Part shown: positions 8,401-13,309 of the stretch, piece after piece | How the letters are laid out: each line of letters begins with the position of its first letter | How positions within the stretch are numbered: position 1 is the stretch's first letter | Assembly (NCBI RefSeq): GCF_058153355.1 | Contig: NZ_CM177019.1 | Reading direction: 5' to 3' (one strand) | DNA length: 64,000 nucleotides | Notes under the pieces: generated by a model | Databases searched by the model: none | Seen by the model: the letters and a program-made list of their open reading frames with translations, nothing else | Told to the model about the DNA's origin: nothing | Made by a program: the position numbers and the translations under genes

Positions 8401-8961
8401 CTGGATACGCAATGCTATTCCAACACCGGTGGTCAGGCGTCGAAAGCGACACCGCTGGGTGCAGTAACTAAATTTGGCGAGCACGGCAAACGTAAAGCGC
8501 GTAAAGATCTTGGCGTCAGTATGATGATGTACGGTCATGTTTATGTGGCGCAAATTTCTCTCGGCGCGCAGCTCAACCAGACAGTGAAAGCGATTCAGGA
8601 AGCAGAAGCGTATCCGGGACCATCGCTGATCATCGCTTATAGCCCGTGTGAAGAGCATGGTTACGATCTGGCACTCAGTCACGACCAGATGCGCCAACTC
8701 ACTGCCACCGGCTTCTGGCCGCTATATCGCTTCGATCCACGTCGAGCCGATGAAGGCAAACTACCGCTGGCACTGGATTCACGCCCGCCGTCAGAAGCAC
8801 TGGAAGAAACGTTACTTCACGAGCAGCGTTTCCGTCGTCTGAATTCACAGCAGCCAGAAGTGGCAGAACAGTTATGGAAAGATGCCGTAGCTGATTTGCA
8901 AAAACGCTATGACTTCCTGGCACAAATGGCCGGAAAAGCGGAAAAAAGCAACACCGATTAA
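5437..8961 (+). CDS. ydbK: pyruvate:flavodoxin/ferredoxin oxidoreductase (1174 aa)
   Basis: two 4Fe-4S ferredoxin motifs CTQCNHCVAACP and CTGCNLCVEVCP, TPP-binding GGDGW; length matches YdbK/Pfo. Confidence 0.95.
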   Translation: MITIDGNGAVASVAFRTSEVIAIYPITPSSTMAEQADAWAGNGLKNVWGDTPRVVEMQSEAGAIATVHGALQTGALSTSFTSSQGLLLMIPTLYKLAGELTPFVLHVAARTVATHALSIFGDHSDVMAVRQTGCAMLCAANVQEAQDFALISHIATLKSRVPFIHFFDGFRTSHEINKIVPLADDTILELMPQAEIDAHRARALNPEHPVIRGTSANPDTYFQSREATNPWYNAVYDHVEQAMNDFAAATGRQYQPFEYYGHPQAERVIILMGSAIDTCEEVVDELLTRGEKVGVLKVRLYRPFSAKHLLQALPDSVRTVAVLDRTKEPGAQAEPLYLDVMTALAEAFNNGERETLPRVIGGRYGLSSKEFGPDCVLAVFAELNAAKPKARFTVGIYDDVTNLSLPLPENTLPNSAKLEALFYGLGSDGSVSATKNNIKIIGNSTPWYAQGYFVYDSKKAGGLTVSHLRVSEQPIRSAYLISQADFVGCHQLQFIDKYQMAERLKPGGIFLLNTPYSADEVWSRLPQEVQAVLNQKKARFYVINAAKIARECGLAARINTVMQMAFFHLTQILPGDSALAELQGAIAKSYSSKGQDLVERNWQALALARESVEEVPLQPVNPHSANRPPVVSDAAPDFVKTVTAAMLAGLGDALPVSALPPDGTWPMGTTRWEKRNIAEEIPIWKEELCTQCNHCVAACPHSAIRAKVVPPEAMENAPASLHSLDVKSRDMRGQKYVLQVAPEDCTGCNLCVEVCPAKDRQDPEIKAINMMSRLEHVEEEKINYDFFLNLPEIDRSKLERIDIRTSQLITPLFEYSGACSGCGETPYIKLLTQLYGDRMLIANATGCSSIYGGNLPSTPYTTDANGRGPAWANSLFEDNAEFGLGFRLTVDQHRVRVLRLLDQFADKIPAELLTALKSDATPEVRREQVAALRQQLNDVAEAHELLRDADALVEKSIWLIGGDGWAYDIGFGGLDHVLSLTENVNILVLDTQCYSNTGGQASKATPLGAVTKFGEHGKRKARKDLGVSMMMYGHVYVAQISLGAQLNQTVKAIQEAEAYPGPSLIIAYSPCEEHGYDLALSHDQMRQLTATGFWPLYRFDPRRADEGKLPLALDSRPPSEALEETLLHEQRFRRLNSQQPEVAEQLWKDAVADLQKRYDFLAQMAGKAEKSNTD

Positions 8962-10519: not shown

Positions 10520-11035
<516 letters not shown>

Positions 11036-11123: not shown

Positions 11124-11723
11124 ATGAATTATGCATTGATAATCGCTATTATAATATCGTTCCCCTGTGCATTATTATCAGTTTTTCTGGTATTAAAAGA
11201 CTGGGCGCTAATAGGAGATGCAATGAACCACGCAATGTTTCCTGGCATAGTTCTAGCCTGGATTATAGGTATGCCGCTGGGAATTGGTGCATTTATTGTA
11301 GGACTGTCTTGTGCAATTGCAACTGGCTATCTGAAAGATAATAGCATCATAAAGAAAGATACCATTATAGGTATCGTTTTTTCAGGAATTTTTGTCTTGA
11401 CTATCAACAGGCACAAGTCAGCGGATTACAGATATCATTATTACATTACGGTTTACTCTGCATGGTATCGCCTACCATTTTTGCCACATTAAAAGCAGTC
11501 GGAATTATTCTGTCTATATACTATTAATAGCTCCAGGGTCTATTGCTGTCCTCATCACGCATCGCTTTCATAAGACATTACTTATCGCCGTAACGATATC
11601 AATAACAATATCAGGCGTATGGTTATTATATTTTCTCGACAGAGCCCCAGCGCCGACAATCGTCCTCTTATTTGCTGTAGCATTTCTTTTCGCGCTTATA
11701 ATAATCAATTTTCGGAAACAATA
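11124..11723 (+). pseudogene. degraded ABC-3 (ZnuB/MntB-like) permease remnant; frameshifted and internally shortened
   Basis: N-terminal frame gives ...ALIGDAMNHAMFPGIVLAWIIGMPLGIGAFIVGL... (like ZnuB GDTLAHASLLGVAFGLL); a second frame gives the permease C-terminus LIAPGSIAVLITHRFHKTLLIAVTISITISGVWLLYFLDRAPAPTIVLLFAVAFLFALII; total under 200 codons, AT-rich. Confidence 0.5.
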
Positions 11724-12003
11724 ATCTCAACAGTAGAATAAAGAGGCAAATCAATCATTACATATATAAGATGGTGCTAATATTGCACCGCCTTTAAATT
11801 GAACTTTATCCTTTCACCCTTACACAATTTAAGGAATGCAGATGACTATTTTATCAGCACCCAGCCTTTTTCCTGGTAATCGAAAACTTGAAAATCATTA
11901 ACTCTAAGAAATTCTGCCAAATCGTTGAAATTACTTTAAATTAGACTCGAACAAATCAACCCCTGATGGGGCTTTTACTTATCCATTTAATCGGGTATAT
12001 ATC

Positions 12004-12053
12004 GACCTCCATCTGCCCGCCTCAGATTCGTACCTGGTGGAGGTCTTTTTTCG
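12004..12053 (+). terminator. hairpin plus T-run in AT-rich island
   Basis: gacctcca...tggaggtc inverted repeat followed by ttttttcg. Confidence 0.35.
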
Positions 12054-12112
12054 TTACCTCTTTCCCCCTTTAGTTCAGTATAAAATCATCAAACTAATGC
12101 TGTTCACACTAT

Positions 12113-12292
12113 TTACCTCCAGCATTCTATATAAATAATAGAAATAAAAACCCCAATACATAGTGCATTGGCATGACCAAACATCAATGCCATTATACTC
12201 GCCTCTGTTAAATACTCGCTAGTTAATATGATAGGCACGCATGATATAACAATCCATATGCTAATACATAAATACACCAGTATTTTTCTCAT
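12113..12292 (-). CDS. hypothetical 59-aa hydrophobic small protein (candidate only)
   Basis: ATG preceded by AGGGA SD at 6-nt spacing; translation MRKILVYLCISIWIVISCVPIILTSEYLTEASIMALMFGHANALCIGVFISIIYIECWR with two hydrophobic stretches; lies in AT-rich DNA where chance ORFs are common. Confidence 0.2.
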   Translation of the reverse strand: MRKILVYLCISIWIVISCVPIILTSEYLTEASIMALMFGHANALCIGVFISIIYIECWR

Positions 12293-13049
12293 AGTCAGTC
12301 CCTGTGATTAACAATCAAGGCATAGTTAAGCATATTTCACATTCAAACGTAAACATTATTAATAACATTATGTCAATCGAACTGACATCACGATTCAAGC
12401 CCTCTTCAGACTGAAGGCTAGAGCAGCGTAGAACATTTCAAAACAATACACTGAAAAAATACTTGAACAAAAAACTTAATTCTTTTTTATTGTGAACTTT
12501 AGTAATTTTGTCATGCAACTCTTTATTACATTTAGGCCTATCTTATTTCATGGCAACGCAAATACAGGACCATTTCTTGTGCTATGGATAAGTAATAAGC
12601 TAGTTACATCTTATTAAGAGAACCATTTTCACATATCAAAATATCATCACCACCCACAATGAATTAAGTATTTTTCTTATTCTTTAGATTAGATACGTAA
12701 TGAATCCCTAACTCCATTCGGGTGTCATGGCTCTTTCATTTGAAATACATTCATATCCAATGTAATATTTCTATGCGCAAATATAACTACCGACCATACT
12801 CATCATTTATTACAGAGAATTATTTTATTCACCGAAAAGTTTCACAAAATATCCCCTGATAGAAAACTAAAAAACACTGCATAATATCGCTATTCTGGCA
12901 CTTGCGAAAAATTATATTCTGCACCTGTTGTAGCGTTCTATTTCTCCGCCTGGCAACGAATGCACAATGTCCGCCACAGTTTCTGTTCTAATTTCTTCCT
13001 GTGTTACCGCATCCTGTACGGGTAGCGCAACACCAGCATGCTAAGCAAG

Positions 13050-13309
13050 GCTTTCCCATCAGATTTCACTACGACTATTTGGGAGCGAGATGGAATGCAG
13101 CAGTAAAACGTGCTGGTATTCGCCGCCGTAATCCGTACCATACGCGACATACTTTTGCCTGCTGGCTGTTGACGGCAGGAGCGAACCCGGCATTTATAGC
13201 CAGCCAGATGGGGCATGAAACTGCGCAGATGGTGTATGAAATTTACGGTATGTGGATTGATGACATGAACGACGAACAGGTAGCTATGTTGAATGCGCGG
13301 TTATCGTAG
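13050..13309 (+). pseudogene. 5'-truncated tyrosine-recombinase (phage integrase) 3' fragment
   Basis: translation ...RRRNPYHTRHTFACWLLTAGANPAFIASQMGHETAQMVYEIYGMWIDDMNDEQ... carries the integrase C-terminal H-x-x-R/HT box and the catalytic Tyr region; no N-terminal domain; abuts ttcA 5' end where intR lies in K-12. Confidence 0.6.

What the first reader, a model, noticed from the sequence alone, without database searches (positions are those of the whole stretch)
12113..12292. Candidate 59-aa hydrophobic small protein inside the AT-rich scar
A minus-strand ORF with an AGGGA SD encodes MRKILVYLCISIWIVISCVPIILTSEYLTEASIMALMFGHANALCIGVFISIIYIECWR, with two predicted membrane-spanning stretches. 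Small hydrophobic peptides in prophage remnants are sometimes type I toxins or lysis/immunity factors. It could equally be a chance ORF in AT-rich DNA.
Basis: inference. Interest (0 to 1): 0.25.

Follow-up and report, generated by a model that had tools for sequence, protein, structure and literature searches.

The report
Unannotated prophage small membrane protein gene
The 59-codon ORF is a real, conserved but uncharacterised small membrane-protein gene from lambda-like E. coli prophages, which normally sits just upstream of the hok/sok toxin module; here it survives intact in a decayed prophage scar where hok has been deleted.

Summary
The ORF is at 12113-12292 (-), as described. Its length proves nothing: 74% of composition-matched random sequences contain an ORF of at least 59 aa. 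Comparison shows it is a gene. A second allele, 41-44% identical in protein and 60% in DNA, occurs in temperate E. coli phages and prophages. That allele has the same 59 codons, start and stop, no indels, and a GGAGG ribosome-binding site. dN/dS is about 0.2 (Fisher p = 8e-5), and all five other frames are closed in at least one of the two alleles. In 72 of 80 viral loci an intact hok/sok starts 257-259 nt downstream. In the window a deletion of about 280 nt removed the hok promoter, sok, the mok start and Hok codons 1-23, leaving a dead hok fragment. The protein is a predicted helical hairpin (pLDDT 80) with a conserved lipobox-like SC motif and a GxxxAxxxG motif. It has no Pfam, PHROGs, NCBIfam, PADLOC or PDB relative, and no relative among 1.84 billion representative proteins. 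It is confined to Escherichia/Shigella. RefSeq annotated nothing under the match in any of the 65 records listed; the matches cover 1,042 (scar-type) and 1,585 (phage-type) of 5,426 genomes. Function is unknown, and expression of the window copy is unproven. Modest interest.

The parts
12113..12292 (-). ORF59 coding sequence (59 aa, ATG to TAA): predicted two-helix membrane hairpin or small prolipoprotein
   Evidence: for the sequence. for the 41%-identical full-length phage homolog with dN/dS about 0.2. for the AF2 helical hairpin. for the lipobox rule met at Cys18 and the G39xxxA43xxxG47 motif.
12299..12303 (-). Shine-Dalgarno-like AGGGA, 6 nt upstream of the ATG (GGAGG at the equivalent place in the phage allele)
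12293..12420 (-). Upstream leader of about 130 nt, homologous to the phage cassette's 5' part; in phages the mosaic breakpoint lies at about -130
   Evidence: for the alignment and for the breakpoint. No consensus sigma-70 promoter was found here.
12059..12112 (-). Post-stop segment. The first ~45 nt are homologous to the phage ORF-hok spacer; the junction of the ~280-nt deletion follows
11976..12058 (-). hok (hokD-type) pseudogene remnant covering Hok codons ~24-51. It has an in-frame TGA at 12022-12024 and a 4-nt deletion. Promoter, 5'UTR, sok, mok start and N-terminus are missing
   Evidence: (84% identity to hokD). Rfam finds sok in the phage but not in the window.
11958..11973 (-). Terminator-like GC hairpin with a T-rich tail after the hok remnant; a possible 3' end for any ORF59 transcript
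12846..12959 (-). Fragment of the phage LygF/DUF977 gene, which lies upstream of the ORF59 homolog in phages (synteny marker)
12950..13066 (-). DUF1627 (ydaW-like) pseudogene fragment
13079..13309 (+). C-terminal fragment of a Rac-type tyrosine integrase next to ttcA (prophage attachment end)
   Evidence: PMC4632033.
11124..11723 (+). Frameshifted sitD-like metal ABC permease pseudogene at the other end of the scar, abutting uspF

Best explanation
ORF59 is a bona fide protein-coding gene of an orphan family found only in lambdoid (Rac/Qin-like) prophages of Escherichia/Shigella. SHOWN: The family has two deep alleles, the scar-type in the window and the phage-type beginning MKNALQ. In phages the gene lies in the early-right region, after the replication genes and LygF/DUF977 and before rusA and Q. 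It forms a cassette of about 800 nt: about 130 nt of leader, the 59-codon gene, a 258-nt spacer, then hok/sok. The window holds a decayed prophage at the ttcA (Rac) attachment site, where every other gene is truncated or frameshifted. A deletion of about 280 nt removed the hok promoter, sok, the mok start and the Hok N-terminus, while ORF59 and its SD remain intact. INFERRED: The product inserts into the inner membrane as an N-in/C-in helical hairpin. Helix 1 either stays as a TM segment or acts as a lipoprotein signal peptide cleaved before the invariant Cys18. Helix 2 carries a conserved G39xxxA43xxxG47 packing face, which suggests self-association or binding to a host membrane protein. In the phage it would be transcribed with the delayed-early pR operon and act at the membrane as an accessory factor; I guess exclusion or membrane perturbation, in line with its hok/sok neighbour. 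The window copy has lost that promoter context, so it is most likely a weakly expressed or silent relic that has simply not yet been hit by mutation.
For: Full-length tblastn match, residues 1-59, 41% identity, E = 5e-11, in three phages. Ungapped 180-nt alignment with identical start and stop positions and a GGAGG SD in the phage. 72 nucleotide differences; pS 0.71 against pN 0.33; all other five frames have stops in at least one allele; Fisher p = 8e-5. 158 IMG/VR stretches encode a relative; all 80 loci kept match the full length with the ORF intact, and 72 of the 80 have a hok start 257-259 nt downstream on the same strand. The ORF is the least diverse segment of the cassette, pi 0.006 against 0.013-0.048, with a mosaic breakpoint at about -130. 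Synteny with LygF/DUF977 upstream. hok remnant and deletion; sok is found in the phage but not in the window. AF2 hairpin, pLDDT 80. Lipobox rule met in both alleles, against 6-7% of shuffles, and a conserved small-xxx-small motif. 10 of 10 scar copies are intact, with 2/180 variable sites against 62/1697 in the rest of the scar. Scar-type in 1,042 and phage-type in 1,585 of 5,426 genomes.
Against: There is no experimental evidence of transcription or translation anywhere, and the peptide is absent from the searchable literature. Only two deep alleles exist, so the purifying-selection estimate rests on essentially one pairwise comparison. All 6 polymorphic sites within the phage clade, and both within the scar clade, are nonsynonymous; that looks like relaxed rather than strong recent constraint, although the changes are conservative and mostly at positions that also vary between alleles. 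No promoter is recognisable upstream in either allele, though the same scan also misses the known hok and sok promoters. The SD in the window is weaker than in the phage. The int pseudogene fragment shows similarly low diversity (1.3%), so the low diversity of ORF59 in the scar is weak evidence. The function is pure inference from architecture and neighbourhood.
Confidence: 0.8

Rival explanations
1. Chance ORF: the reading frame is an accident of AT-rich decaying DNA and encodes nothing.
For: ORFs of at least 59 aa arise in 74% of composition-matched random sequences. PGAP does not call it. No family hit in any library. Recent polymorphisms are all nonsynonymous.
Against: A homolog differing at 40% of nucleotides keeps exactly 59 codons, the start, the stop and the hydrophobic pattern with no indel. 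dN/dS is about 0.2, p = 8e-5. The ORF is intact in all 80 viral loci and all 10 scar copies examined, and it is the lowest-diversity segment of its cassette.
Confidence: 0.04
2. ORF59 is itself a type I toxin: a hydrophobic killer peptide kept silent by a cis-antisense RNA.
For: It is a small, very hydrophobic prophage peptide (GRAVY 1.4) lying next to a type I locus. Two promoter-like sites on the antisense strand lie inside the ORF, at 12112-12139 and 12168-12196. In the window's minimum-free-energy fold the SD is paired.
Against: No promoter-like site on either strand of the phage allele. The leader folds are not conserved and have modest z-scores. Rfam finds no sRNA here. The phage allele has a strong, exposed GGAGG SD. 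The protein has two helices, whereas most type I toxins have one. There is no Hok_Gef, Ldr, Ibs or other toxin hit. An unguarded toxin would be unlikely to stay intact in more than 1,000 genomes after its neighbourhood decayed.
Confidence: 0.07
3. Small prolipoprotein variant. Residues 1-17 are a lipoprotein signal peptide cut by LspA. The mature 42-aa product is lipid-modified at Cys18 and anchored by the single C-terminal helix. It would be comparable in size to phage lipoproteins such as Rz1, Cor and Llp.
For: Both alleles meet the PROSITE lipid-attachment rule: K/R in the first 7 residues, an uncharged 14-residue h-region, and [VF][IVA]SC with Cys18. Only 6-7% of TM1 shuffles do so. S17, C18 and P20 are invariant between alleles that are 41% identical.
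Against: The stretch after Cys18 (VPIIL/MPIIF) stays hydrophobic, and AF2 models one continuous helix 2-24. Position -3 is F in the phage allele, which is unusual for a lipobox. The pattern is known to give false positives in TM helices. There is no similarity to Rz1, Cor, Llp or Bor families.
Confidence: 0.3
4. Domesticated gene. The scar copy is kept by selection in its E. coli lineage for a host-beneficial role such as phage exclusion or stress tolerance, which explains why it alone survived the decay of the prophage.
For: It is the only intact ORF of the island. 10 of 10 copies are intact, and diversity is 1.1% against 3.7% for the rest of the scar, Poisson P about 0.04. Common protein variants (V6M, S11N, A31V, I50V) avoid positions invariant between alleles. 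Disrupted versions are rare, 1-11 contigs against more than 1,200.
Against: A 180-nt target is expected to survive about 1-2% neutral divergence. Both polymorphisms among the 10 copies are nonsynonymous. The integrase pseudogene fragment has equally low diversity. No promoter is evident. The DNA is AT-rich, a type of sequence that is typically silenced.
Confidence: 0.15
5. Functional partner of hok/sok: a third component of the cassette that modulates Hok activity or release.
For: Fixed 257-259-nt spacing in 72 of 80 loci. Both deep alleles are attached to hok. The cassette is bounded by shared mosaic breakpoints, with a single terminator after hok.
Against: hokD occurs without any ORF59 homolog, for example directly after queH in L003, and classical hok/sok loci need no such protein (established knowledge). 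ORF59 persists without hok in 1,042 genomes. The linkage may simply reflect the low diversity of one cassette lineage, with only 7 ORF alleles among 80 loci.
Confidence: 0.08

Closest known systems
Hok/Gef type I toxins (hokD/relF of Qin-like prophages) with sok antisense RNA
   Same: Small hydrophobic prophage-encoded membrane peptide. Physically adjacent: an intact hokD/sok follows the homolog in phages, and a hok remnant follows ORF59 in the window.
   Different: No sequence similarity and no Pfam Hok_Gef hit. Two helices rather than one. No mok-like overlapping frame, no sok-like RNA and no fold-back leader. It is a separate upstream gene.
GhoT/OrtT small two-helix membrane toxins (57 aa)
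   Same: Nearly the same length and the same predicted two-TM hairpin architecture. E. coli inner membrane.
   Different: No detectable homology: the Pfam and NCBIfam scans gave no hit to these families. No GhoS-like partner gene. Toxicity is untested.
Small phage membrane or lipoprotein accessory factors: superinfection exclusion (T4 Imm, HK97 gp15, Cor, Llp) and Rz1-type lipoproteins
   Same: Tiny phage-encoded envelope proteins carried as dispensable accessory genes. A lipobox-like motif and a 59-60-aa precursor size resemble Rz1, Cor and Llp.
   Different: No sequence or profile similarity. The mature part is a hydrophobic helix rather than a soluble periplasmic domain. It lies in the nin/early-right region, not in the lysis or tail-moron positions. 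No exclusion phenotype has been tested.
Class II holins and pinholins (e.g. phage 21 S21, two TMDs with a glycine zipper)
   Same: Two TM helices and a G/A/S-xxx-G/A/S zipper in helix 2.
   Different: Not in a lysis cassette. No dual-start motif, no charged C-terminal tail and no holin family hit.

Membership tests
Hok/Gef type I toxin family | Sequence match to the Hok_Gef family (about 50 aa, single N-terminal TM, conserved C-terminal periplasmic segment) | tested here: not met
   Pfam and NCBIfam scans of both alleles gave no Hok hit at E <= 1. The neighbouring remnant at 11976-12058 does match hokD.
Hok/Gef type I toxin family | Cis-encoded antisense RNA (sok) and an overlapping mok frame controlling translation | tested here: not met
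   Rfam RF01794 is found 90 nt downstream of the phage homolog's stop, not over it, and is absent from the window. No conserved antisense promoter.
Type I toxins in general | Toxicity on expression; membrane depolarisation | not testable with these tools
   Needs an inducible-expression experiment.
GhoT/OrtT toxins | Match to the GhoT/OrtT family profile | tested here: not met
   No Pfam or NCBIfam hit at E <= 1. Only the architecture is shared.
Bacterial lipoproteins (Lgt/LspA substrates) | N-terminal basic residue, hydrophobic h-region, and lipobox [LVI][ASTVI][GAS]C with Cys at positions 15-35 (PROSITE PS00013-type rule) | tested here: met
   All four allele variants tested match with Cys18; 6-7% of TM1 shuffles match. 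The phage allele has F at -3, which the PROSITE rule allows but is atypical.
Bacterial lipoproteins (Lgt/LspA substrates) | Actual lipid modification and signal-peptidase II cleavage | not testable with these tools
   Needs globomycin or palmitate labelling, or mass spectrometry.
Holins / pinholins | Holin family profile match and location in a lysis cassette next to an endolysin | tested here: not met
   No Pfam or PHROGs holin hit. The neighbours are replication, nin-region and hok genes.
Known anti-phage defence system components | Match to a PADLOC model | tested here: not met
   0 families for both alleles.
Protein-coding gene (generic) | Reading frame preserved with an excess of synonymous change between diverged homologs | tested here: met
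   pS 0.71 against pN 0.33, no indels, other frames closed; p = 8e-5.
Protein-coding gene (generic) | Evidence of translation | not testable with these tools
   No Ribo-seq or proteomic data are accessible. The peptide strings are absent from the searchable literature.

The most novel reading that the evidence does not exclude
ORF59 and its phage allele define an unrecognised small inner-membrane (lipo)protein that works together with, or as an alternative to, the hok/sok killer module of lambdoid prophages, for example as a membrane-level exclusion or abortive-infection factor. It has been retained by selection in a large E. coli lineage after hok itself was lost. If so, up to about half of sequenced E. 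coli genomes carry an active gene that RefSeq left unannotated in every record I listed.
Probability: 0.12. Interest if true: 0.55.

Novelty: new member of a known kind. Interest (0 to 1): 0.3.

Why it matters
- **Annotation gap.** RefSeq (PGAP) annotated nothing under the match in any of the 65 records listed, and three phage records call an ORF on the wrong strand. The matches span 1,042 and 1,585 of 5,426 complete E. coli genomes, so a conserved gene may be missed on a large scale.
- **Link to hok/sok.** The gene is the constant upstream neighbour of a hokD/sok cassette. It is therefore a cheap and specific candidate for groups studying prophage-encoded membrane toxins, exclusion factors or small lipoproteins.
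- **This window.** The practical result is a clean reconstruction of the scar. It is a Rac-site prophage reduced to sitD, hok, DUF977, DUF1627 and integrase fragments plus one intact small gene.
- **Limits.** Nothing here challenges current concepts, and the function is unknown.

Tried and rejected
- **ORF length as evidence.** Rejected, because simulations give such ORFs 74% of the time.
- **Family assignment.** Pfam, PHROGs, NCBIfam, PADLOC and PDB sequence searches gave only sub-threshold compositional hits: DUF4212 at E 0.14, TIGR03647 at 0.053 and phrog_6298 at 0.067, each for one allele only.
- **Fold search.** Foldseek against BFVD gave nothing below E = 2, and a helical hairpin is too generic to be informative.
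- **Distant relatives.** An exhaustive HMM search of 1.84 billion representatives found only the two alleles and their fragments; the two long multi-stretch hits (P0051, P0054) were judged hydrophobic noise and were not examined further. A six-frame scan of 100,044 species genomes gave one hit, which is a misbinned E. coli prophage contig. Translated searches of plasmids and phages found no third allele.
- **Regulatory RNA.** Rfam gave only sub-threshold hits in the window (STnc420, 26 bits against a gathering score of 70). Leader folds are not conserved between alleles.
- **Promoters.** None was found upstream of either allele. The scan also fails to see the known hok and sok promoters, so this negative result is weak.
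- **Antisense ORF.** The 83-85-aa antisense ORF annotated in phage records ('hornerin') is rejected as the real gene, because its frame has two stops in the window.
- **Literature.** Searches for the peptide strings and for hokD-adjacent small proteins found nothing relevant.
- **Population signal.** Within-clade polymorphism is too sparse to decide whether there is current selection: 6 and 2 sites, all nonsynonymous.

Full report
**Observation**

AGGGA lies at 12299-12303, 6 nt before the ATG. The surrounding DNA is 32-37% GC, against about 50% in the flanks.

Length alone carries no weight. First-order Markov simulations of the scar give at least one ORF of 59 aa or more in 74% of trials, and in 53% with ATG starts only.

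**Setting**

The window is E. coli. The gene order is ompN, uspF, the AT-rich gap, an integrase C-terminal fragment, ttcA and dbpA. ttcA is the attachment site of the Rac prophage (PMC4632033).

RefSeq annotates only three things in the gap:
- a frameshifted sitD-like metal ABC permease;
- a DUF1627 fragment;
- the integrase fragment.

Nothing is annotated over ORF59 in any of the 35 records listed. The same scar is present in about 1,042 of 5,426 complete E. coli genomes at 98-100% identity, including ExPEC strains such as 536.

**A hok remnant next door**

Window 12003-12058 matches hokD at 84% identity. On the minus strand it reads ...VTKKDLHQVRI*GGQMEVD..., compared with HokD ...VTRKDLCEVRIRTGQTEVA.... 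It carries an in-frame TGA at 12022-12024 and a 4-nt deletion. Homology to hok starts only at about Hok codon 24. The type I toxin at this locus is therefore a dead hok fragment, not ORF59.

**ORF59 is a conserved gene**

- *Phage homolog.* A translated search of phage genomes found a full-length match (residues 1-59, 41% identity, E = 5e-11) in the temperate E. coli phages vB_EcoS-640R1, 813R8 and PhiR42_1.
- *Alignment.* The DNA alignment across the ORF has no gaps, the start and stop positions are identical, and the phage copy has a GGAGG SD.
- *Selection.* The two copies differ at 72 of 180 nucleotides. pS is 0.71 and pN is 0.33, so dN/dS is about 0.2 (Fisher p = 8e-5). Only this frame is open in both; each of the other five has stops in at least one allele and shows no synonymous excess.
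- *Antisense ORF.* The depositors of two phage records called an antisense 83-aa ORF here and labelled it 'hornerin'. That frame has two stops in the window, so it is probably a mis-call.
- *Synteny.* The phage gene order is cro, cII, O, LygF/DUF977, several small ORFs, the ORF59 homolog, mok/hok, rem, ydfU, rusA and Q. The window keeps a LygF fragment (12846-12959), then ORF59, then the hok remnant, all on the same strand.

**The cassette**

A peptide-pattern scan of IMG/VR gave 158 confirmed stretches. All 80 loci kept match residues 1-59 with the ORF intact. In 72 of them a hok start lies 257-259 nt downstream on the same strand. Rfam places the hok/sok regulatory region (RF01794, 112 bits) 90 nt after the homolog's stop. 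The window has no such match.

Among collinear haplotypes the ORF is the least diverse segment. Its pi is 0.006, against 0.013-0.014 in adjacent non-coding DNA and 0.016-0.048 across hok. A mosaic breakpoint lies about 130 nt upstream of the ORF. So leader, ORF and hok/sok travel as one unit of about 800 nt, with a single terminator after hok.

In the window a deletion of about 280 nt removed the hok promoter, 5'UTR, sok, the mok start and Hok codons 1-23.

hokD can also occur with no ORF59 homolog upstream, for example directly after queH in L003. The two genes are therefore linked but not obligatorily coupled.

**Breadth**

The phage-type allele is present in 1,585 of 5,426 complete E. coli genomes, and nothing is annotated under the match in any of the 30 records listed. 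Some GenBank submissions carry both alleles as 'hypothetical protein', including records from Shigella flexneri and S. dysenteriae.

I found no relative outside these two alleles:
- An exhaustive HMMER profile search of 1.84 billion representative proteins found only the two alleles and their fragments.
- A six-frame scan of 100,044 species genomes found one hit, a 'Collinsella' MAG contig. It is 92-96% identical to phage 640R1 and has 44.5% GC, so it is misbinned E. coli prophage DNA.
- Translated searches of plasmids and phages found no third allele.
- Pfam, PHROGs, NCBIfam, PADLOC and PDB gave nothing significant.
- The peptide strings do not appear in the searchable literature.

This is an orphan family confined to Escherichia/Shigella prophages.

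**The protein**

AlphaFold2 predicts a helical hairpin, helices 2-24 and 30-58, with mean pLDDT 80. Foldseek finds nothing specific.

The residues invariant between the alleles are M1, L5, L8, W13, S17, C18, P20, I21, I22, T24, L36, F38, G39, N42, A43, L44, G47, V48, F49, E56, W58 and R59.

Two features stand out:
- *Lipobox.* Both alleles satisfy the PROSITE lipoprotein lipid-attachment rule with Cys18. Only 6-7% of composition-matched shuffles of helix 1 do.
- *Packing motif.* Helix 2 carries a conserved G39xxxA43xxxG47 small-xxx-small face.

In ORF59 the charges (N-terminus +2, loop -2) favour an N-in/C-in topology.

**Is the window copy functional?**

This is unresolved.
- *For constraint.* All 10 scar copies examined are intact. 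The ORF has 2 variable sites in 180, against 62 in 1,697 for the rest of the scar (Poisson P about 0.04). Common protein variants avoid the invariant positions.
- *Against constraint.* Both of those polymorphisms, and all six within the phage clade, are nonsynonymous. The integrase pseudogene fragment is equally invariant. No promoter is recognisable upstream. The phage early-right transcription context has been lost. A 180-nt ORF is expected to survive 1-2% neutral divergence.

I judge a silent or weakly expressed relic more likely than a domesticated gene.

**Mechanism: what is shown and what is inferred**

- *Shown.* ORF59 is a gene under past purifying selection. It encodes a predicted two-helix hydrophobic protein. 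It belongs to a hok/sok-linked cassette of lambdoid prophages. hok has been deleted in the window.
- *Inferred.* The protein inserts into the inner membrane. It may be processed as a lipoprotein at Cys18 (about 0.3). It may self-associate or bind a partner through helix 2. In phages it is probably expressed with the delayed-early operon. An accessory membrane role such as exclusion or membrane perturbation is a guess.
- *Disfavoured.* The type I toxin reading for ORF59 itself. It has no toxin-family similarity, no conserved antisense promoter or structured leader, a strong open SD in the phage allele, and it persists unguarded in more than 1,000 genomes.

**Verdict**

ORF59 is a new member of a known kind, the small prophage-encoded membrane accessory proteins. 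It matters mainly as a widely missed annotation and as the conserved neighbour of hokD/sok. Interest is 0.3.

Noticed in passing
window 11976-12058 (-): hokD-type type I toxin pseudogene remnant (Hok codons ~24-51, in-frame TGA at 12022-12024, 4-nt deletion). It lacks its promoter, sok, mok and N-terminus because of a deletion of about 280 nt.
   Followed up: yes
window 11124-11723 (+): Frameshifted sitD-like metal ABC transporter permease pseudogene directly after uspF. It suggests the decayed island once carried a sitABCD-type iron/manganese uptake operon. Intact versions of the island were not traced.
   Followed up: partly
window 12846-13309: A stack of prophage gene fragments next to ttcA: LygF/DUF977 (12846-12959, -), DUF1627/ydaW (~12950-13066, -) and a Rac-type integrase C-terminus (13079-13309, +). 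PMC4632033 lists CFT073 as an unexplained exception, with a rac-type TtcA N-terminus but no rac-like prophage in ttcA. A scar like this one could explain that; I did not check CFT073.
   Followed up: partly
L004:3407-3658 (-) and L005:3407-3658 (-); phage records ON470612.1, ON470619.1, PV340562.1: The depositors annotated an antisense 83-aa ORF ('hornerin' or hypothetical) over the ORF59 homolog. That frame has two stops in the window allele, so it is probably a mis-call on the wrong strand.
   Followed up: yes
L087 (JAIJJM010000167.1, 'Collinsella sp.' MAG): This 5.5-kb contig is 92-96% identical to E. coli phage 640R1 and has 44.5% GC. It is almost certainly a misbinned E. coli prophage contig in an actinobacterial MAG.
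   Followed up: yes
H133, NZ_CP069920.1 (Klebsiella oxytoca, 9.5-kb 'plasmid') 8758-8934: This is the only record outside Escherichia/Shigella that carries the phage-type allele (44% identity to ORF59, full length). I did not determine whether it reflects real transfer, a phage fragment or contamination.
   Followed up: no
window 12380-12420 (-) and L004:3377-3440 (+): A hairpin lies at the 5' edge of the cassette, near the mosaic breakpoint. In the window it is AGCCUUCAGUCUGAAGAGGGCU; in the phage it is a longer AU-rich stem. The sequences differ, and the predicted folds are not clearly equivalent. It could be a terminator or boundary element of the upstream gene.
   Followed up: partly
window 12445-12495 (+): Sub-threshold Rfam hit to the Salmonella sRNA STnc420 (26 bits against a gathering score of 70, E = 0.03). 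Probably chance in AT-rich DNA.
   Followed up: no
window 10529-11035 (+): The mechanical ORF for uspF starts at a GTG 72 nt upstream of the RefSeq-annotated start (window ~10601). This is only an ORF-listing artefact.
   Followed up: no
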